Of a stretch of DNA of 24,000 bases, positions 1 through 23,847 are shown piece after piece. The stretch spans positions 15,738 through 39,737 of the forward strand of contig JAZLIQ010000003.1 of assembly GCA_045617465.1 (NCBI GenBank). The letters are read 5' to 3'. Numbering within the stretch: position 1 is the first letter of the stretch; each line of letters starts with the position of its first letter. The stretch comes from Mycoplasmoidaceae bacterium. GTDB lineage: Bacteria; Bacillota_I; Bacilli_A; Mycoplasmatales; Mycoplasmoidaceae. A model generated the notes under the pieces. It was not told where the DNA came from. It made no database searches and was given only the letters and a program-made list of their open reading frames with translations. Position numbers and translations under genes: made by a program.

Positions 1-14
1 TTTAACCTCTTTTT

Positions 15-359
15 TTATTCATCATCGTCATCATCAAAGATGGCTGCCTCATCAGAATCAGAACCAAAGAACATGTCTCCTGATCTGATTGTAGTGTCTC
101 CACCTGAACCGAAGAACATATCTCCTGATTTTATAGTTGTTGATCCATCTGAACCAAAATACATATCTCCAGATTTGATGGTTGTTTTACCATCTGATCC
201 AAAAAACATATCACCTGATTTAATAGTAGTAGTTCCATCAGAACTAAAGAACATATCACCAGATCTGATTGTAGTTTTACCATCAGAACCAAAGTACATG
301 TTTCCTGATTTTATAGTTGTAGTACCTTTATGTTTTCCCATAACTACCTCTACTTTCAT
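15..359 (-). CDS. Tandem-repeat protein of unknown function: six 15-aa units G-x-T-T-I-[KR]-S-G-[DN]-M-[FY]-F-[GS]-S-[DG] followed by an acidic tail AAIFDDDDDE
   Basis: 114-codon ORF with genome-typical A/T-ending codons on the - strand. GAGG (347-350) lies 5 nt upstream of an internal ATG (339-341), which is probably the real start because a TATAAT box (358-363, - strand) overlaps the first ATG (357-359). The mirror ORF on the + strand uses atypical codons (ctg, gtg, ccg, aag). Confidence 0.7.
   Translation of the reverse strand: MKVEVVMGKHKGTTTIKSGNMYFGSDGKTTIRSGDMFFSSDGTTTIKSGDMFFGSDGKTTIKSGDMYFGSDGSTTIKSGDMFFGSGGDTTIRSGDMFFGSDSDEAAIFDDDDDE
57..326 (-). repeat. 6 x 45-bp in-frame tandem repeat inside the CDS at 15-359
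   Basis: Residues 12-101 of the - strand protein form six consecutive 15-aa units, and the period is also visible in the + strand shadow ORF. Units are diverged at the DNA level (not identical copies). Confidence 0.9.
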
Positions 360-370
360 TATATCTTATT

Positions 371-408
371 AAAAAAGAAAAAAGAAGGGGTTAACCCTTC
401 TTCTTTTT
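371..408. terminator. Bidirectional rho-independent terminator (stem 382-389 / 395-402, loop 390-394) flanked by an A-run and a T-run
   Basis: AAGAAGGG / CCCTTCTT pair as an 8-bp stem. The T-run is read on the - strand (complement of 371-381), directly downstream of the SWIB gene stop at 423-425. Confidence 0.75.
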
Positions 409-422
409 GAAAGTCAAATTAA

Positions 423-674
423 CTATTTCTTAAGTTCTTTGCTCATACAAGAAGCAAGAGCAAACATACTGATTTGTTTCTTTCCACCAAATAATGGTTT
501 TAATTTTGCATCAGCATTGATCATTCTTTTATTCTTCTTGTCTTGAAGTTTGTGAGCTTTAATGTAAGCTCATACTTTCTTAACTGCTTGTGGTCTAGTA
601 ACTTTACCAGCACCAATAACAGCTGCTAATTTAGCAGTAGGAGTTAATTTTTGTTCAGTAATACTTTTTCCCAT
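423..674 (-). CDS. Stand-alone SWIB/MDM2-domain protein (83 aa)
   Basis: My own reverse translation (this ORF is absent from the track because of an in-frame TGA) gives MGKSITEQKLTPTAKLAAVIGAGKVTRPQAVKKVWAYIKAHKLQDKKNKRMINADAKLKPLFGGKKQISMFALASCMSKELKK. It matches the SWIB pattern L..(i/v)(v/i)G....(p)R.e(v/i).KK(l/m)W.YIK...LQD..NKR.I..D.KL...FG....(i/v).MF, as in the small chlamydial SWIB proteins. The length is 252 nt, in frame. AAAGGA precedes the ATG, and a TATAAT box lies at 695-700 (- strand). Confidence 0.85.
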
Positions 675-797: not shown

Positions 798-846
798 AAA
801 AAATTTTTTTTAAATTTTACAAATTTTTAGGTGAATAAGTATATGG
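798..846 (+). promoter_or_regulatory. Copy 1 of a 49-bp conserved upstream element (A/T tract + TTTTAGGTGAATAAGTATATGG core); candidate non-canonical promoter
   Basis: Gap-free alignment to 22444-22492 gives 46/49 identities. The exact 22-nt core at 825-846 equals 22471-22492. Flanking sequence is unrelated. Confidence 0.6.
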
Positions 847-849
847 GAG

Positions 850-1086
850 GTGATTTATATAAAACTGTTGACTATTAATCAAAAGAAGCAAAAAGCAGGC
901 GGTTCATTTTATGCTATTGCTTTAGGTATTGGTATTCTTGTTTCAACTGTATCTAGTTTAGTAATGAATGCGATCAGCGCCTCAAGACCAGCTGATCAAC
1001 AAACTACAAACTATGGTATGAGAAGAACAACCATTATGCGTTTGTCACCAGTACCAACACGAAGTACGTTATCTATTATTGGCTAA
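850..1086 (+). CDS. Small hypothetical membrane protein (78 codons, GTG start uncertain), with one predicted TM helix FYAIALGIGILVSTVSSLVMNAI
   Basis: ORF directly downstream of the conserved element and of GGGAGG (845-850). It has a hydrophobic core segment. The start codon is ambiguous (GTG 850, ATT 853, TTG 868) and I recognise no homology. Confidence 0.4.
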   Translation: MIYIKLLTINQKKQKAGGSFYAIALGIGILVSTVSSLVMNAISASRPADQQTTNYGMRRTTIMRLSPVPTRSTLSIIG

Positions 1087-1171
1087 AGCTTAAAATTCAA
1101 CCCTCCATACAAATTTTCATTATATTGAGAAAGATAAAAGTAATATATTACTTTTATTTTTCTTTCTTGTG

Positions 1172-4064: not shown

Positions 4065-5519
4065 ATGAAAAGAAAATGAATAACCTTACCTCTAGTTTCA
4101 ATTTTAACGGTATCAACACCATTAGTATCGTTGATAAGTTGTAGCAAACAAGAGGAAGAAGATCCAACAGTAGAAGACATTACTATTGATGAGTCAGAAA
4201 AACAACAAAGTGCTGATTTCATAAACAAAAAAGCAATGTATACATTTAGCTTTTCTGGCGAAGACGAAACAGCTATCCAACTAGAAATTATTGAACCAAC
4301 AAATGGTTCGATCAAATTTGACACTGGATATGACAATGTTGTAGTTAAAGATGGTAAATTTACAACAGTAATTATGTTTGATCAAGCTCCATCAACGACA
4401 ACTGATTGTCCATTTAGTTTAAAATGCAAATATACAGTTGGTGAAGAAACAAAAGAACAAACAATTGAGGATTTACATATTTGATATGTAAAACAAATTG
4501 ATATTGTTAGAAATGTTGCTAACTTTATTAATGATGTCGCAACATTTAACTTCATTTGACGTGGCGATGTTCCGACAGAACTAAAACCTGAATTGTTTTT
4601 AGTCTCACCAGAATCTGGACTTGAATTGGTATCTGATTCAGTTCAAGTAACAGGAGACACTTTTAGTGTAAAAGTTAAACGTACTGATGTAGTTTCACAT
4701 AGATTTGATATCAAATTTTCTTATGAGATACCAAATATCGGATCATTCGATGAAGTTGTTATCGGACTAACTGCTAGTGATGCGGGAGACCCTGCAGTTA
4801 CTTTCACTGGTGAGGATGATATGGATGGAATTACAAGAAATCTAGGTTCATCATATGGATGACAATCTGCTGCAATCTATAGTGGTTTTACAGCTAGCAA
4901 CATTGCTGATGTAAGTAATGACCTAGTTGTTACAGTAGCAGAAAAACCAGATGGCTCTGGGTCAACACATTTAGGTGAAATATATCCATATATTTATGAA
5001 ACTGCAACCAATGTTGATACACCATTTGAATTAGCATTATTCTTTGAAAACTGAAACGTAGTAGAAGGTACATATGAAATGGATGTAAGCATCAGTCTTG
5101 CTGGTACAAATGAACCATTATGGAGTGATACATTTTCTGTAACATTCGAAATGAGTATCACTCAACCAGCTGATGATCAACGTACTGTTTCAACAAGAAG
5201 CCACTTAGAAGAGTATTCTGCTACATTTAAGGGTTTCCAATTCTTACATGTGGATTTATCATATGATGATAAAATAAATAGATTAGTTACTTTATATGAT
5301 GTTGATGAGGGCAAAGACTTAAAAGAAGTTTATGACGATTATTCAATTGATTTTGTCTATGACTCAACTCAAGGTGAAAACCCAGATGTGATCCTCGAAG
5401 TTTATTTTGGTTTTTCACAAATTAAAAAGATGTCAATTAATTGTTCATTAACATTCACTTACCATAGTGAAAAAGTAATTGATGGTTCAACAGGTTACAA
5501 AATAAATAAAGGAATATAA
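4065..5519 (+). CDS. Surface lipoprotein A (484 aa), function unknown
   Basis: Signal peptide plus lipobox: MKRKWITLPLVSILTVSTPLVSLIS|C. ORFs 4131-4484, 4593-4862 and 5079-5519 are all in the frame of the ATG at 4065 and are joined by in-frame TGA. The mature part is acidic, Thr/Val/Asp-rich and looks beta-rich. Confidence 0.85.
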
Positions 5520-5568
5520 TTGTCTAATACATTTATAATAAATAGGTTTTCTTAAATAAGGAGAAATT

Positions 5569-6546
5569 ATGAAAAAAAGAAAAATATTAATGCCACTATT
5601 GTCTATAGCAAGTATTGGTTGTGTTGCACTGCCAATAGCTAGTTGTAGTTGTGGTCAACAAGGAAATGTTGATGTTAAATTAATCACCGAAGTAAAAGGA
5701 ATAACAATTGATAAAACAAAAGCAACTAAAGGTGAAAACTTTAGTGCTACTATTTCATCAGCAGCTACACCACTAATTGATATCAAATCTATTGAATGTA
5801 ATAATGCAGAAATTATTGTTAGAAATTATGATTTCACATTAAGTGATGACAGAATGTCAGGTGTGTTAACTGTTAAAGGTGAAAGCATTACTGGTGATGA
5901 TCTAACAATCACACTAATCACTGATCGCGAAGATGAATATCATTTATCAATAACTGATAATATTGATAATGCTAATTTATACATTCTTGATGAATGATTC
6001 GATAAAAGCCCTGTCCCAGGTGAAGATTTAAAATTGCGTTTTGCATCATACTACGGTGTTAGATGTAATATGGGCGATCCTGGTGAATACTACAAATTAT
6101 TTATTAATGGTAAAGAGTTTACCGGTGCTTATCGTGTAGAAGAATATGACTCACCTGAAGGTGGAACATATATCTTACATATTCCTGCTGCCAGTGTTGG
6201 TTTGATTAATGGAAACTTGAAACTAACAGTTACTCGTTTCACTTACATCATCCCACAAACTATGGATGGCAACGCTTGAGTTCTAAACTTAAAAGCTGAG
6301 GAAGACTTAGAATCTATCATTGCAAGTAGAGGAGAAGATTTATTTCTAGAAGTAGATTGAGATGAGGCACCTATTGCATATACAGGATTTGAAGTTTATG
6401 CAAACGGAATAAAGTTAAATGATGATGACTGATCATTTACAGAAGCTACTGATGAAGAAAGAGCAAAATGACCACAATATGAAGGTTATATTAAAATTCA
6501 TGGCGATTGTGTTCTTGACCCAATCAGTGTAAAAATTTTATATTAA
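5569..6546 (+). CDS. Surface lipoprotein B (325 aa), function unknown; shares an N-terminal module with lipoprotein C
   Basis: AAGGAG (5558-5563) lies 5 nt before the ATG. Signal peptide plus lipobox: MKKRKILMPLLSIASIGCVALPIAS|C. ORFs 5569-5997 and 6034-6279 are in frame, and the frame continues across further TGA codons to TAA at 6544-6546. A TATAAT box at 5534-5539 is a possible internal promoter. Confidence 0.85.
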
Positions 6547-6557
6547 GGAGATAAATT

Positions 6558-7949
6558 ATGAAAACAATTAATAAATTATTAATTTCGCTTGCTGCAGTAC
6601 CAACATTAGTTACTGCTGGTTCATTAGTTGGAAGCTGTGCATCAAATAATGGATCTAAAATTGACGCTGTGATTGTTGCGCCAGAAGATGTTATATTTAG
6701 TAACACTAAATTTGAGATTGGAAAAGATTTTACAACTGAAATTATTTTCCAAAGAGAAGATTACACAGTTGATACATTGTCAATTTCTCAAGATAATATT
6801 CCATTTAGTAGTGATATGTATGAATATACTGAATCTACTCATACATTACTAATCCGTGGTAAGTTTATTACTAAGGACAATTTAAAAATTGTATTAACAC
6901 AAAAACTTGGCAGTGTTAGCATTACTGTAGCACCACAACCAACAACAACTGACCCAATGGGTGATATAAGAAAAATTGATGGTAAATATTATTCTGTTGC
7001 AATTGTTAAAGGGTTCAAATGAAATAATTATGATCCAAATGAAACAATTTCAGCTATAGCATCAATGGGCGAAAACAATGATGCCCAAGTTGAAGCTAGC
7101 GTTGTTGATATGGATGAAAATGGTAACTTTGATGTTGCTTTAAAAATTTTATATCAAGACACTACCCTTATTGCTGCACCTGGGCCTTACAATTTCACTA
7201 TTGGTTTTATCCACCGTGGTAAAGTTGTTCCATTAACTGGGGTTTCAACATATCCTATATATTTCTATACTGGATTTGTTGAACCAGCTGAAGCCCCTAA
7301 GGTAGAAGTTAACTTTGCTGGTGAACCGACATATACTGTGACTTGAAGTGGTTGTGATATCGCACATTATGGTCGAGAATTAAGTACTATTAAAGCTGCT
7401 CTATATTCTCTTCTTGATGATTTTGATGTTTCTATTGATGGTGCCAATGCACATTCATTTAATATAAAAGCTACATCTAAATCAGGAAAAATAAATCTTG
7501 AACCACAAAGCCCTTCAACACGTATGCTATTGGAAAAAACCGATGGTACACTACTAACAGAACCATTTGACTTTAAATTTGACATTGGTCGTTATGTTAA
7601 CCCAGCAGTCGATACTAACCCATGAACAATTTCAAAAACAGCAGGAACTACACAAGTAACATTAGGTGTATTCGACTTACGTGGATGAGCTAACTATAAT
7701 ATTACTGACCCAACTAAATGAGATGTTAAAGTTGCATTCCAACAACTACCAAAAGGTGTTTCAAATCCAAGATTTGAACCTAATGGTGCTGTTGACAACA
7801 TGCATTACAACCTTGTTGTTGACTTCGACGCTACAGAAGCAGAAATTGGAACATCTGATGTATTACAAATGAGAATACATGAAGCTGGTCAAGAATACTG
7901 ATCAAGTACTGAAGCTGGATTAGAATACAAGATTGAAATCACTGAGTAA
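6558..7949 (+). CDS. Surface lipoprotein C (463 aa), function unknown
   Basis: AAGGAG (6545-6550) precedes the ATG. Signal peptide plus lipobox: MKTINKLLISLAAVPTLVTAGSLVGS|C. ORFs 6558-7022 and 7065-7346 are in frame, and the frame continues across several TGA codons to TAA at 7947-7949. Confidence 0.85.
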
Positions 7950-13490: not shown

Positions 13491-13517
13491 AAGTGGGAGA
13501 AAGTGGAGAAAAGTGGG
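13491..13517 (+). promoter_or_regulatory. Three phased MraZ boxes (AAGTGGG / AAGTGGA / AAGTGGG, 10-bp spacing) forming the mraZ operator, next to a TATAAT box at 13485-13490
   Basis: Direct repeats start at 13491, 13501 and 13511. They lie between the -10 box and the mraZ ATG (13520). This matches the described Mollicutes MraZ site (direct AAAGTG[G/T] repeats) and the E. coli arrangement of three repeats at 10-bp spacing. Confidence 0.8.
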
Positions 13518-13519
13518 AA

Positions 13520-17368: not shown

Positions 17369-17395
17369 TTAGCACTTTTTTGTTATGAGTGCTAA
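17369..17395 (+). promoter_or_regulatory. CIRCE element (HrcA operator) TTAGCACTT-N9-GAGTGCTAA upstream of dnaJ
   Basis: It matches the CIRCE consensus TTAGCACTC-N9-GAGTGCTAA at 17/18 arm positions with exact 9-nt spacing. A TATAAT box at 17404-17409 follows, and the dnaJ ATG is at 17431. Confidence 0.9.
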
Positions 17396-21826: not shown

Positions 21827-22459
21827 ATGTATATTGCTTTATTAGTTGGTTTGTGTTTACTTACAGCACTAGGGCTTGGGGCTAGTGCTTTAGTTTATTC
21901 TTCTTATATTTACTATAGAAATAGAGTATTTAGTAAAACTAAAGTTTCTGTATTATGAATTGTTGTTTGTGGTTTCATGGTCATTTTTATGACTATTGGT
22001 ATAGTTTGTTTTAGTCTGGATGCTAACACATGACATACTTGTTTAGAGTTTGATCCAGCTTACATAGCTTTATCTTCTGTTTGTTTATTTTTAAGCATAG
22101 CTTATCTTGTGTTTTTTAGTCTATTGCCTAAACTAACAAACAAAAATAAGATACCTTATGATCAAATGATGAAGGTTGATTATCAAACAAAGATAAAGCA
22201 AATTCAACAACGTTTGGGTGACCTTAACAAAGTTAAAAATGACTTATTAACCCACCATAAGCACTATTACCAAGACATGCTTTTTTATTACGAAAAGATT
22301 CTAAATCGGCTAAAAGATCAAAAAATTTCTTTGGTTGAAAAAATGGCAGATATTGTAACTTTCAATGATACGTTTACTCACTATTGATGCACTAAAACGA
22401 ATGATTACCAACTTCTATTAACATACCAGTTTTGTGAGGCTCTAAAAAAATTTTTTTAA
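21827..22459 (+). CDS. Hypothetical membrane protein (three predicted N-terminal TM helices plus a charged helical C-terminal half)
   Basis: The ATG lies 1 nt after the cinA stop. Translation MYIALLVGLCLLTALGLGASALVYSSYIYY...VLWIVVCGFMVIFMTIGIVCF...YIALSSVCLFLSIAYLVFFSLL is followed by ...KIKQIQQRLGDLNKVKNDLL.... ORF 22109-22387 is extended in frame on both sides across TGA. Confidence 0.7.
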
Positions 22460-22492
22460 ATTTTCCAAACTTTTAGGTGAATAAGTATATGG
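22444..22492 (+). promoter_or_regulatory. Copy 2 of the 49-bp conserved upstream element, immediately upstream of recA
   Basis: 46/49 identities to 798-846. The core TTTTAGGTGAATAAGTATATGG lies at 22471-22492, and the recA ATG is 16 nt downstream. The 5' A/T tract overlaps the last codons of the preceding ORF. Confidence 0.6.
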
Positions 22493-22507
22493 AGAATATA
22501 AATACAT

Positions 22508-23488
22508 ATGCAAAATCAAAAATTATTTGAAGAAACTATAAAAGAACTAGAAACCCAATTCGGTAAGGGTTCTATTATTAGTTTAGATAACTCTAAAGCT
22601 ATAGCTTGTGAAGTTATCTCATCTGGAAGTATAAATTTAAATAAAGCTATAGGTGTAGGTGGTTATCCTAAAGGAAGAATCATTGAAATCTATGGTAATG
22701 AAAGTAGTGGTAAGACTACATTAGCATTACAAGCTGTTGCTAGCTGTCAAAAGGCAGGTGGCAAATGTGCTTATGTTGATGTAGAACATGCCTTAGACAA
22801 TAAATATTGTCTTGCTAATGGTGTTGACACTAAAAAACTATTATTAGCTCAGCCAGAAACTGGTGAACAATCTTTTGCTATTGTCGAAGCATTAATTAAA
22901 ACAGGAATGATTGATTTAATTATTGTTGACTCAGTAGCTGCCCTAGTTCCTGAAGCTGAACTAAATGGTGAATATGAAGACCAAAACATTGGTCTACATG
23001 CTAGACTGATGTCTAAAGGACTAAGAATCCTACAAACAGTAATGGCTAAATATAACACTACAGTTATCTTTATTAATCAAATTAGAGAAAAGGTTGGTAT
23101 TTTATTTGGTGATAACAAAACCACACCCGGTGGTTGAGCAATGAAGTTCTATTCTAGTTTAAGAATAGATTTGAAACGTATTGAAGCTTTAAAGAGCGGA
23201 ACAAACATTATTGGTATCCGTTCTTTAGCTAGAGTTGTCAAGAATAAAGTTGCACCACCAATGCAATCATGTTATCTTGATATCTACTTTAACAAAGGAT
23301 TTGATAATGTAGCAGAAATAATTGAAAATGCTATTGCAGCTAACATTATTCAAAAATCTGGATCATGATTTTATTTTGGTGAAACAAAACTTGCCCAAGG
23401 TAAGGAAGGAACAATAAAATTCCTAACTGACACTAAAAATAAAAAACTTTTTGGTGAAATAACGAAGTTAGTTTTAAAACCTCAATAG
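22508..23488 (+). CDS. recA: Recombinase RecA
   Basis: Motifs FGKGSII, Walker A GNESSGKTTLAL, AYVDVEHALD, IIVDSVAALVP and FINQIREKVG. Three fragments are joined by TGA (GGWAMKFYSS) to TAG at 23486-23488. Confidence 0.97.
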
Positions 23489-23501: not shown

Positions 23502-23510
23502 TGGTATAAT
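23502..23510 (+). promoter_or_regulatory. Extended -10 promoter (TGgTATAAT) ending 4 nt before the ATG of the coiled-coil gene; probably a leaderless mRNA
   Basis: TG at 23502-23503 and TATAAT at 23505-23510, with the ATG at 23515. No Shine-Dalgarno sequence is possible in that spacing. Confidence 0.5.
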
Positions 23511-23514
23511 AAAA

Positions 23515-23847
23515 ATGACAATTAGAGAAGTAATTGTAATTTTAAATAATCCCAAAATGTTAGATTGTCAATGTAATTTCAAATTAACAGGTAAACCTAG
23601 GATAACCGTTGAGCAACTTGCCTCAAATTTAACAGTACTCAATTCCAAAATGATTGAGCTTAGTGACAAGGTGATTGAACTCAATGATAAGGTAATTGAG
23701 CTTAACACTAAGGTAATTGAGCTTAACACTAAAGTTAATCAGATTAGCACTAAGCTAGATGCTTTTATTATTGAAGTCCGCAATGGTTTTAAAGCTATCA
23801 ACGATAGAATTGATAACCTCGTTAAGAAAAACAATCTAATTGAATAA
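23515..23847 (+). CDS. Coiled-coil protein with heptad (21-bp) tandem repeats KVIELN(D/T); function unknown (Mycoplasma DUF16-like architecture, tentative)
   Basis: The 110-aa ORF contains KMIELSD KVIELND KVIELNT KVIELNT KVNQIST KLDAFII, then ...AINDRIDNLVKKNNLIE. A terminator follows directly. Confidence 0.75.
   Translation: MTIREVIVILNNPKMLDCQCNFKLTGKPRITVEQLASNLTVLNSKMIELSDKVIELNDKVIELNTKVIELNTKVNQISTKLDAFIIEVRNGFKAINDRIDNLVKKNNLIE
23647..23751 (+). repeat. 5 x 21-bp in-frame tandem repeat; units 3 and 4 (23689-23709 and 23710-23730) are identical
   Basis: Units start at 23647, 23668, 23689, 23710 and 23731. AAGGTAATTGAGCTTAACACT occurs twice in tandem. Confidence 0.9.

What the first reader, a model, noticed from the sequence alone, without database searches (positions are those of the whole stretch)
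22444..22510. recA is preceded by a 49-bp non-canonical element that recurs upstream of an unrelated small ORF 21.6 kb away
22444-22492 aligns without gaps to 798-846 at 46/49 positions, including an exact 22-nt core TTTTAGGTGAATAAGTATATGG. The sequences on both sides are unrelated, so this is not a gene duplication. The core has no clean TATAAT box. It has a T-tract followed by GTGAATA, which resembles the T-tract + TACGAATA cin-box read by ComX/SigH-type alternative sigma factors. Those factors classically drive cinA-recA in streptococci. The arrangement also parallels the MG428 (sigma-20) recombination regulon of M. genitalium, where recA is co-regulated with small ORFs. cinA lies two genes upstream here. 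If GAATA is the -10 element, the transcript would start near the conserved ATG-like triplet at 22489 (843 in copy 1). I infer that this is a dedicated promoter or operator marking a small recombination/competence-type regulon.
Basis: partly seen in the sequence, partly recalled or inferred. Interest (0 to 1): 0.78.

Follow-up and report, generated by a model that had tools for sequence, protein, structure and literature searches.

The report
Shared recA / rrlA-like promoter cassette
A roughly 50-base sequence sits just upstream of both recA and a small membrane-protein gene related to rrlA, the sigma-20 helper gene of Mycoplasma genitalium, which suggests that this uncultured gut mycoplasma switches on recombination genes together, much as M. 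genitalium does.

Summary
Positions 798-846 and 22444-22492 match at 46 of 49 bases with an exact 22-nt core. There are no other copies in the window, and none are expected by chance.

The window comes from an uncultured Mycoplasmoidaceae lineage (TGA = Trp) close to 'Candidatus Hennigella equi'. In six related genomes the same two genes, recA and a roughly 75-aa ORF directly upstream of rpoD, carry one shared upstream architecture. It consists of a T-tract, then WKGTNAAK, then 5-6 nt, then ATGG, then GGAG.

In three genomes the two copies are 90-95% identical to each other, while orthologous copies between genomes are only 62-75% identical. This is concerted evolution. The small-ORF copy even carries a remnant of the gene that precedes recA, so the DNA was physically copied.

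The small ORF is a remote homolog of MPN313/MG_220 (rrlA). In M. genitalium, rrlA is the gene most strongly induced by sigma-20, alongside recA.

Neither copy contains a canonical sigma-70 promoter, although other genes in the window have clean TATAAT boxes.

My best reading is that this is the clade's version of the sigma-20-type recombination promoter. The ComX cin-box resemblance is not conserved in relatives. No whole genome, sigma-factor gene or transcription start could be checked.

The parts
798..846 (+). Cassette copy 1, upstream of the rrlA-like small ORF
   Evidence: It matches copy 2 at 46/49 positions. It is the top PWM hit in the window when the matrix is built only from other genomes.
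22444..22492 (+). Cassette copy 2, upstream of recA. Its first 16 nt overlap the 3' end of gene 21827-22459.
   Evidence: It is the second-best PWM hit in the window in the leave-one-genome-out scan.
824..828 (+). T-tract of copy 1 (the equivalent in copy 2 is 22471-22474)
   Evidence: A run of 4-8 T is present in 13 of the 14 related copies examined; GCA_045599065's sORF copy is the partial exception.
831..836 (+). GTGAAT, the candidate non-canonical -10-like hexamer (clade consensus GTNAAK) in copy 1
   Evidence: Alignment of 14 copies. T at the second position and A at the fourth and fifth positions are shared with the sigma-20 -10 box ATTWAT (PMC4446450). This assignment is an inference.
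22477..22482 (+). GTGAAT, the same hexamer in copy 2
   Evidence: for coordinates.
843..846 (+). ATGG, the 3' end of the cassette and the inferred transcription start region in copy 1
   Evidence: ATGG is present in 11 of the 14 copies. It lies 6 nt (5 nt in one lineage) downstream of GTNAAK. The start site itself is inferred, not mapped.
22489..22492 (+). ATGG in copy 2
846..850 (+). Shine-Dalgarno sequence GGAGG of the small ORF
   Evidence: GGAGGTGA is conserved in 5 lineages. It lies 8 nt before codon ATA 859, which is ATG in lineages L028 and L030.
859..1086 (+). rrlA-like small ORF (75 aa). It probably starts at ATA 859; the mechanical ORF call is 850-1086. The protein has a single hydrophobic helix and a C-terminal RLSPVPSRS motif.
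   Evidence: NCBIfam NF045747 'MPN313 family', E=1.3e-6. 25 of 26 family members hit this model, shuffled controls give 0 of 9, and there is no Pfam hit. Synonymous codon changes across lineages show that it is translated.
1136..1155 (+). A+T-only terminator hairpin followed by a T-run, which closes the small-ORF transcription unit ahead of rpoD's own TGTGGTATAAT promoter (1170-1180)
   Evidence: The hairpin is kept in lineage L020 through compensatory changes (CAAAAGTAATTAATTACTTTTG).
22491..22494 (+). GGAG upstream of recA, 13 nt before the ATG, which is an unusually long spacing
   Evidence: Typical Shine-Dalgarno spacing for other genes in this window is 5-8 nt.
22497..22502 (+). TATAAA lying 5 nt before the recA ATG, a possible second sigma-70 promoter that would give a leaderless basal transcript
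   Evidence: TATAAA, TATTAA or CATAAA lies 5-6 nt before the ATG in most lineages examined (L001, L002, L003 and the window). It is absent in L027. This is an inference.
22508..23488 (+). recA
   Evidence: Translation with table 4. Homologs are 94% identical and below. The protein is identical to cluster member P0253.

Best explanation
The 49-bp repeat is a promoter-proximal cassette shared by recA and an rrlA-like small membrane-protein gene. I read it as this clade's counterpart of the sigma-20 (MG428)-dependent recombination promoter of M. genitalium and M. pneumoniae. Inferred mechanism: an alternative sigma-type factor, not RpoD, recognises a T-tract followed by a non-canonical -10-like hexamer GTNAAK (GTGAAT here). 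Transcription then starts about 7 nt downstream, at the conserved ATGG. The resulting 5' leaders are short (16 nt for the small ORF, 19 nt for recA) and begin with the GGAG ribosome-binding sequence. This would switch on recA together with the sigma accessory protein homolog. What is shown: the two copies are real and specific; the architecture is conserved upstream of the same two genes across six genomes; the two copies are kept alike within genomes by physical copying (gene conversion); the small ORF belongs to the RrlA/MPN313 family; and no canonical sigma-70 promoter lies in the cassette. What is inferred: promoter function, the position of the -10 box and of the transcription start, and the identity and existence of the sigma factor.
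For: (1) Specificity: the window holds two copies, with 0 expected by chance. Related genomes hold only two sites each per 37-39 kb, always upstream of recA and the small ORF and always in the same orientation. With a PWM built only from other genomes, the two sites rank 1 and 2 among 48,000-85,000 positions in four genomes, including the distant SRR29688492 lineage, and 1 and 3 in a fifth.
(2) Partner gene: the small ORF and 25 of 26 relatives hit only NCBIfam NF045747 'MPN313 family' (best E=9e-8). None of 9 shuffled, segment-shuffled or reversed controls hit it, and no other small protein of the window does. MPN313 is the M. pneumoniae ortholog of MG_220 = rrlA, which sigma-20 induces 57- to 165-fold alongside recA (PMC4446450 Tables 1 and 3; PMC6105099 Table 1).
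(3) Position: the small ORF is a stand-alone unit made of cassette, Shine-Dalgarno sequence, ORF and terminator. Its upstream neighbour is divergently transcribed, and the whole intergenic space is only about 82 nt in lineages L028 and L030, so its promoter must lie in or directly next to the cassette.
(4) Other genes of the window have clean TATAAT boxes (rpoD, lipoprotein gene, mraZ, dnaJ, ORF 23515). The sigma-70 scan finds none in either cassette copy.
(5) The distance from GTNAAK to the start codon is 17-25 nt, within the 15-26 nt reported for validated sigma-20 promoters. GTTAAT-N17-ATG in L030 compares with ATTAAT-N16-ATG for MG_220.
(6) There is a precedent for the promoter code shifting between species: TTGTCA in M. 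genitalium versus TTGGCR in M. pneumoniae.
Against: The canonical sigma-20 architecture is not met. If GTNAAK is taken as the -10 box, no consistent TTGNCA lies 18-19 nt upstream; only T-rich sequence is found there, with 5/6 matches in just two copies. If the variable hexamer (WKGTNA, for example ATGTCA in L003) is taken as the -35 box, the -10 box would fall after the Shine-Dalgarno sequence and overlap the ATG in L027, L028 and L030. The hexamer itself is poorly conserved (GCGAAG and GACTAG in two lineages). No sigma-20 ortholog, and no third regulon member such as ruvAB, could be sought, because only about 6% of any related genome was reachable. No sigma-like protein is encoded in the regions held. 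The identity between copies extends over 50-70 nt, more than a sigma factor needs, so copying alone could explain it. The match to the MPN313 family is below NCBI's curated cut-off (29 bits against 100).
Confidence: 0.55

Rival explanations
1. The cassette is a shared operator or 5'-leader element. It would bind a non-sigma regulator, such as a repressor, an activator or an RNA-binding factor, or act as an RNA element. Ordinary promoters lying in the A+T-rich 5' part or further upstream would drive transcription.
For: The conserved block abuts the GGAG of both genes. Weak TAWTTT -10-like strings precede the T-tract in several lineages. A small hairpin presenting GGAG in its loop can be drawn in both window copies, and a stronger one in L002 and ERZ recA (z = -2.2, -2.0, -3.8).
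Against: The predicted folds are not shared between the recA and small-ORF copies; the small-ORF copies give z = +0.1 to +1.6. There is no Rfam match and no palindrome typical of a dimeric operator. The candidate upstream -10 strings are neither conserved in position nor found by the sigma-70 scan. No complementary (antisense) third copy occurs in about 250 kb of clade DNA.
Confidence: 0.2
2. The cassette is an ordinary housekeeping (RpoD) promoter and leader that was copied from the recA locus to the small-ORF locus and is kept similar by recurrent gene conversion. No dedicated regulator or regulon exists.
For: Physical copying is demonstrated. The small-ORF copies in ERZ1767561 and CP185406 carry a remnant of the 3' end of the TM gene that precedes recA, and the similarity runs for 54-71 nt. 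Pair identity decays in some lineages (78%, 72%, 66%), as expected if homogenisation is episodic and not enforced by a binding protein.
Against: The cassette has no TATAAT-type box, whereas other promoters in the window do. The association with the same two genes has persisted through divergence down to 72-74% RecA identity. A cross-genome PWM still singles out exactly these two sites, so the motif is under selection at both loci. The partner gene being an rrlA homolog is hard to explain as coincidence.
Confidence: 0.15
3. The match is a generic dispersed repeat, a mobile-element end or att site, or a chance match in A+T-rich DNA.
For: The two copies are direct repeats 21.6 kb apart, and the DNA is A+T-rich (31% GC).
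Against: Shuffles give 0 matches. The 21.6 kb between the copies holds syntenic core genes (rpoD, leuS, mraZ, ftsZ, dnaJ, asnS). The 18-mer and 22-mer cores gave only scattered single chance hits in 596 Gb of genomes and in JGI metagenomes. There are no extra copies in related loci.
Confidence: 0.03

Closest known systems
Sigma-20 (MG428/MPN626)-dependent promoters of the M. genitalium / M. pneumoniae recombination regulon (TTGTCA-N18/19-ATTWAT; PMC4446450, PMC6105099)
   Same: Both occur in the family Mycoplasmoidaceae. The same gene pair is involved: recA plus the small protein gene rrlA (MG_220/MPN313 family). The motif is non-canonical and differs from the housekeeping TATAAT. The distance to the start codon is short (15-26 nt there, 17-25 nt here). 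The motif changes between related species. The -10-like box has T at its second position and A-A/T at its 3' end.
   Different: There is no consistent TTGTCA-type -35 box at 18-19 nt; a T-tract directly precedes the hexamer instead. The hexamer begins with G and is loosely conserved. The two copies are near-identical over 34-54 nt within three of the six genomes, which is not described for M. genitalium. The rrlA-like gene sits next to rpoD. The sigma factor itself has not been seen.
ComX/SigH cin-box (TACGAATA preceded by a T-rich tract) of streptococcal late competence genes, including cinA-recA
   Same: The architecture is a -10-only box preceded by a T-tract. It is linked to recA. In this genome the core GGTGAATA shares GAATA with the cin-box.
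   Different: GAATA is not conserved in sister lineages. The cinA gene here is a PncC-domain gene in a separate upstream operon. No ComX-like gene has been seen, and Mollicutes are not known to use ComX.
RrlA (MG_220 / MPN313), the sigma-20 accessory protein
   Same: The small ORF family matches the NCBIfam MPN313 model, at full length in some members (positions 1-85 of 87). It is of similar small size and is paired with recA through a shared upstream motif.
   Different: The match scores 27-32 bits, far below the equivalog cut-off of 100, so this is a remote relative and not an ortholog by NCBI's rule. The conserved C-terminal RLSPVPSRS motif and the glycine pair after a charged N-terminus were not compared with true RrlA sequences.

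Membership tests
Sigma-20 (MG428)-type promoter | A bipartite consensus: a TTGTCA/TTGGCR -35 box, an 18-19 nt spacer and an ATTWAT/ATTYAT -10 box | tested here: not met
   Register A takes the variable hexamer WKGTNA as the -35 box. The -10 box then falls after the Shine-Dalgarno sequence and overlaps the ATG in L027, L028 and L030. Register B takes GTNAAK as the -10 box (2-5 of 6 matches to ATTWAT). The sequence 17-19 nt upstream is then T-rich, and TTGNCA-like hexamers occur only in L003 recA (CTGTCA) and the G165 small-ORF copy (TTGTGA).
Sigma-20 (MG428)-type promoter | Located upstream of recA and of rrlA (MG_220/MPN313) | tested here: met
   The element precedes recA and a remote MPN313-family gene in all six genomes with both loci available.
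Sigma-20 (MG428)-type promoter | Short distance (15-26 nt) from the -10 box to the start codon of validated targets | tested here: met
   GTNAAK lies 17-25 nt from the start codon (L030 17, L028 19, L027 21, window 22 and 25).
Sigma-20 (MG428)-type promoter | The genome encodes an MG428/MPN626-like sigma factor that is required for initiation | not testable with these tools
   Only about 38 kb per related genome could be fetched. The sole sigma-domain protein there is RpoD, and the proteins without a Pfam hit are lipoprotein-like.
Sigma-20 (MG428)-type promoter | Further regulon members (rrlB-ruvAB, C39-type exporter and others) carry the motif | not tested
   None of those genes lies in the window or in the loci fetched.
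ComX/SigH cin-box promoter | A conserved TACGAATA box at -10 across regulon members and related species | tested here: not met
   The window has GGTGAATA (5 of 8 matches). Relatives have GGTCAAGA, CGCGAAGA, TGACTAGT and TGTTAATA.
RrlA / MPN313 protein family (NCBIfam NF045747) | A score above the curated equivalog cut-off (100 bits) | tested here: not met
   Scores are 27-32 bits with E from 1e-6 to 9e-8. It is the only family hit, for 25 of 26 members, and controls give 0 of 9. This supports remote homology, not equivalog membership.
Dispersed repeat / mobile-element end | Many copies with no fixed orientation or position relative to genes | tested here: not met
   Each genome segment holds two copies, always upstream of the same two genes and on the coding strand. 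The whole genome was not scanned.
Rfam RNA families / structured leader | A match to a covariance model, or a shared stable fold | tested here: not met
   There is no Rfam hit at E<=1 near either copy. The predicted folds are inconsistent between copies.

The most novel reading that the evidence does not exclude
Each species of this gut mycoplasma clade would carry its own 'private' promoter sequence for a recombination regulon. The code would drift quickly between species while its copies (recA, rrlA-like and perhaps others) are re-synchronised within each genome by RecA-dependent gene conversion, co-evolving with a fast-evolving sigma-20-like factor. RecA would then help to maintain the identity of its own regulatory cassette. 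The cassette would use a -35-less architecture of T-tract plus GTNAAK, not described for any mycoplasma sigma factor.
Probability: 0.2. Interest if true: 0.75.

Novelty: new variant of a known kind. Interest (0 to 1): 0.58.

Why it matters
Apart from sigma-20 in M. genitalium and M. pneumoniae, almost nothing is known about how wall-less, LexA-less Mollicutes control recombination. This locus suggests that the recA-rrlA regulatory link is older and more widespread in the Mycoplasmoidaceae than those two pathogens, and that it reaches uncultured gut lineages. It also offers a second, differently built version of the promoter, which would help define what the alternative sigma factor actually reads. 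Finally, it is a clean natural example of two short regulatory regions evolving in concert at loci 16-22 kb apart. Together these give concrete sequences for in vitro transcription or reporter tests, and a specific motif with which to enumerate the regulon once the full genomes are scanned.

Tried and rejected
1. Whole-collection scans. The 18-mer core in genome contigs gave 14 single hits in unrelated phyla, all chance. The 22-mer in JGI metagenomes gave one hit in a 48% GC contig, also chance.

2. Rfam with a relaxed threshold gave nothing relevant.

3. Model with the variable hexamer as -35 box and an ATTWAT-like -10 box after the Shine-Dalgarno sequence. It looked attractive (ATGTCA in L003 equals the M. 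genitalium recA -35 box; ATTTAT and ATTAAT lie at N18/19). I rejected it because the small ORF's start is fixed by an ATG in L028 and L030 and by synonymous codon changes, so the -10 box would overlap the start codon.

4. Model with NTNTAT just before GG as the -10 box. I rejected it because transcription would then start inside or after the Shine-Dalgarno sequence.

5. A conserved RNA hairpin or anti-Shine-Dalgarno pairing. It is present only in some copies.

6. An upstream ORF starting at the conserved ATG. Its reading frame relative to the small ORF varies between lineages.

7. Gram-positive SOS box GAAC-N4-GTTC. It is absent near both copies.

8. A search for an extra sigma factor among unannotated proteins in the fetched loci found only lipoprotein-like or membrane proteins.

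9. Other small proteins of the window (TM protein 21827-22459, coiled-coil ORF 23515-23847) show no link to sigma-20 regulon families.

10. Double-glycine leader idea for the small ORF. The only support is a weak TIGR03949 hit for one remote member (E=0.043), so it remains speculation.
Full report
OBSERVATION. The window is A+T-rich (31.4% GC). Its genes are intact only under translation table 4 (TGA = Trp), so it comes from a mollicute. Positions 798-846 and 22444-22492 align without gaps at 46 of 49 positions, and the flanks are unrelated. The 22-mer TTTTAGGTGAATAAGTATATGG occurs exactly twice, on the same strand, even with three mismatches allowed, while shuffles give none. A local alignment scores 83 against a null maximum of 35. 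Copy 2 ends 15 nt before the recA start codon (22508). Its first 16 nt overlap the last codons of a conserved membrane-protein gene (21827-22459), which follows a PncC-domain cinA gene. Copy 1 ends at the GG that begins the GGAGG ribosome-binding site of a small ORF. That ORF lies directly upstream of rpoD (1205-2572) but is separated from it by an A+T-only terminator hairpin (1136-1155) and by rpoD's own TGTGGTATAAT promoter.

ORGANISM AND RELATIVES. RecA and RpoD searches place the window among uncultured 'Mycoplasmoidaceae bacterium' MAGs, one of which is named Candidatus Hennigella equi. The window's RecA is identical to a protein on a 244-kb NCBI contig. I fetched the recA locus and the small-ORF/rpoD locus from five other genomes of the clade. 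These are CP185406.1, ERZ1767561 NODE_2, GCA_045641165, GCA_045599065 and a Logan contig from SRR29688492. I also fetched extra single loci. Gene order is conserved throughout.

WHAT IS CONSERVED. In every genome both recA and the small ORF are preceded by the same architecture: a run of 4-8 T, then a block of about 14 nt with consensus W-K-G-T-N-A-A-K-R-N-N-T-A-T, then ATGG, then (G)AG. A weight matrix built only from the sites of other genomes ranks the two sites first and second among 48,000-85,000 positions in the window, CP185406, ERZ1767561 and the distant SRR29688492 lineage. It ranks them first and third in GCA_045599065. It fails only in GCA_045641165, whose core is the most divergent. 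No third site appears in about 250 kb of clade DNA. The element is therefore not a dispersed repeat. It is a gene-specific cis element that has stayed with these two unrelated genes through divergence down to 72-74% RecA identity.

CONCERTED EVOLUTION. Over the last 40 nt, the two copies within one genome are 95% (window), 92% (ERZ1767561) and 90% (GCA_045641165) identical. Orthologous copies in different genomes are only 62-75% identical, which is close to the 55-68% seen between unrelated A+T-rich copies. The variable block differs from genome to genome: AGGTGAATAAG here, CGCGAAGAGT in ERZ1767561 and ATGACTAGTAC in GCA_045641165. Within each of those genomes it is the same at both loci. In CP185406, SRR29688492 and GCA_045599065 the pairs have drifted apart (78%, 72% and 66%). 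Gapped alignments show that the similarity runs for 54-71 nt. They also show that the small-ORF copy in ERZ1767561 and CP185406 contains a remnant of the 3' coding end of the membrane-protein gene that precedes recA. This is direct evidence that DNA was physically copied from the recA locus to the small-ORF locus, repeatedly or with continuing gene conversion, and not that the two sites converged independently.

THE SMALL ORF. Codon comparison across lineages shows synonymous changes (ACT/ACG/ACA, TTG/TTA, CAA AAG/CAA AAA) starting from the codon that is ATA here (859), ATT in others and ATG in two distant lineages. In those distant lineages a GGAGG sequence lies 4-5 nt upstream. The protein therefore starts at 859 and reads MKLLTINQKKQKAGG, then one hydrophobic helix, then RLSPVPTRS. 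Its mRNA must begin upstream of 846. The family has 27 members in this clade and 17 remote clusters of proteins about 80 aa long, all unnamed, and it has no Pfam match. Against NCBIfam, 25 of 26 members hit a single model, NF045747 'MPN313 family protein' (window ORF E=1.3e-6, best E=9e-8, some alignments full-length). None of nine shuffled, segment-shuffled or reversed controls hit it, and no other small protein of the window does. MPN313 is the M. pneumoniae ortholog of MG_220 (PMC4446450, Table 1). MG_220 was later named rrlA, a 'sigma accessory protein'. It is the gene most strongly induced by the alternative sigma factor sigma-20, together with recA, ruvAB and rrlB (PMC4446450 Table 3; PMC6105099 Table 1). 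The scores are far below NCBI's equivalog cut-off, so I call this remote homology and not orthology.

HOW IT MOST LIKELY WORKS. The small ORF is a stand-alone unit whose upstream neighbour is divergently transcribed. In two lineages the whole intergenic space is about 82 nt, and that space also contains the neighbour's perfect TATAAT box on the other strand. The small ORF's promoter must therefore lie within or touch the cassette. Housekeeping genes of the window have clean, often TG-extended TATAAT boxes, but a sigma-70 consensus scan finds nothing in either cassette copy.

I tested three promoter registers. First, the -35 box was placed on the variable hexamer. That hexamer resembles the sigma-20 -35 box; L003 has ATGTCA, exactly as in M. 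genitalium recA. This register puts the -10 box after the Shine-Dalgarno sequence and onto the start codon in three loci, so it is excluded. Second, the -10 box was placed on the NTNTAT just before GG. Transcription would then start inside the ribosome-binding site. Third, the -10-like box was placed on GTNAAK (GTGAAT, 831-836 and 22477-22482). The A of the conserved ATGG is then seven bases downstream, the GGAG stays in the transcript, and the distance to the start codon is 17-25 nt. That compares with 15-26 nt for validated sigma-20 promoters (GTTAAT-N17-ATG in L030 against ATTAAT-N16-ATG for MG_220). The second-position T and the A-A/T 3' half are shared with ATTWAT.

It has no consistent -35 box, and the T-tract takes that place. 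The published shift of the sigma-20 -35 box from TTGTCA (M. genitalium) to TTGGCR (M. pneumoniae) shows that this regulon's promoter code does move between species. All of this is inference. No transcription start, no sigma-factor gene and no further regulon member could be examined.

RIVALS. An operator or 5'-leader element remains possible. However, the predicted RNA folds are not shared between the two genes, there is no Rfam hit and there is no operator-like symmetry. A purely neutral copy of an ordinary promoter maintained by gene conversion explains the long identity and its decay in some lineages. It does not explain the absence of a TATAAT box, the persistence of the motif at both loci across the clade, or the fact that the partner gene is an rrlA homolog. 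A chance match, a dispersed repeat or an att site is excluded, and by the core-gene content between the copies.

COMPARISON WITH KNOWN SYSTEMS AND NOVELTY. The system works like the sigma-20 recombination regulon of M. genitalium and M. pneumoniae: same bacterial family, same gene pair, a non-housekeeping motif and short leaders. It fails the defining bipartite consensus, so I do not file the element as a canonical sigma-20 promoter. The cin-box likeness is limited to this one genome. I rate it a new variant of a known kind. The new points are the different promoter build, the extension of the recA-rrlA link to uncultured gut lineages, the placement of the rrlA-like gene next to rpoD, and the concerted evolution of the two cassettes.

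LIMITS. As a result, the genome-wide count of the motif, the search for ruvAB, rrlB or an exporter as further targets, and the search for the sigma factor all remain open.

Noticed in passing
window 22497-22502: A TATAAA box (TATTAA or CATAAA in relatives) lies 5-6 nt before the recA ATG in most lineages examined, and the GGAG upstream is 11-13 nt away, unusually far for a ribosome-binding site. recA may have a second, sigma-70-type promoter that gives a leaderless basal transcript.
   Followed up: partly
window 859-1086 and 1205-2572; L018, L020, L021, L028, L029: The rrlA-like gene lies directly upstream of rpoD in the six genomes with both loci examined (in L030 the two genes are about 1.1 kb apart). 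The two genes are separated by a conserved A+T-only terminator hairpin (1136-1155), which shows compensatory changes in L020. This is a curious placement for a homolog of a 'sigma accessory protein'.
   Followed up: partly
window 859-903 (N-terminus of the small ORF): The N-terminus MKKLTxxQKxxxxGG (GG or AG nearly invariant, followed by the hydrophobic helix) resembles a double-glycine leader of exported peptides. The M. genitalium sigma-20 regulon includes a putative peptide exporter (MG_390). The only support is one weak TIGR03949 hit in a remote member.
   Followed up: partly
L021 9583-9653 vs L025 9915-9985; L018 9573-9626 vs L023 9933-9985: The small-ORF copy of the cassette contains a diverged remnant of the 3' coding end of the membrane-protein gene that precedes recA. 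This shows that copying went from the recA locus to the small-ORF locus.
   Followed up: yes
window 423-674 (- strand): This is a stand-alone SWIB/MDM2-domain protein (Pfam E=8.6e-26), similar to the C-terminal SWIB domain of some topoisomerases. Relatives have ackA at this position, so the locus was rearranged here.
   Followed up: no
window 12-371: At least six tandem 45-nt repeats encode 15-aa units (GDMFFGSDGKTTIKS) in ORF 15-359 on the - strand, which ends in an acidic tail.
   Followed up: no
window 4065-7949: Three consecutive lipoprotein-like genes (signal peptide plus Cys) lie between the NIF3-family gene and nifU. They are absent from most of the relatives examined at this position, though ERZ1767561 carries one lipoprotein-like gene there.
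   Followed up: no
window 13493-13519: A triple direct repeat, GTGGGAGAAA GTGGAGAAAA GTGGGAA, lies immediately upstream of mraZ. It looks like a MraZ-box array.
   Followed up: no
window 17369-17395: A CIRCE-type inverted repeat, TTAGCACT-N11-AGTGCTAA (HrcA operator), lies upstream of dnaJ-grpE and is followed by a TATAAT box and a leader without a Shine-Dalgarno sequence.
   Followed up: no
window 23515-23847: A small coiled-coil ORF downstream of recA has its own TGGTATAAT box (23502-23510) and 21-nt tandem repeats (23637-23720). Its length varies from 53 to 110 aa among relatives.
   Followed up: no
L002 9968-9985: In GCA_045641165 the lineage-specific part of the cassette (TACTCT) is complementary to the GGGAGAG that follows it, forming a 6-9 bp hairpin around the ATGG (z = -2.0). 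This is not seen in other lineages.
   Followed up: partly
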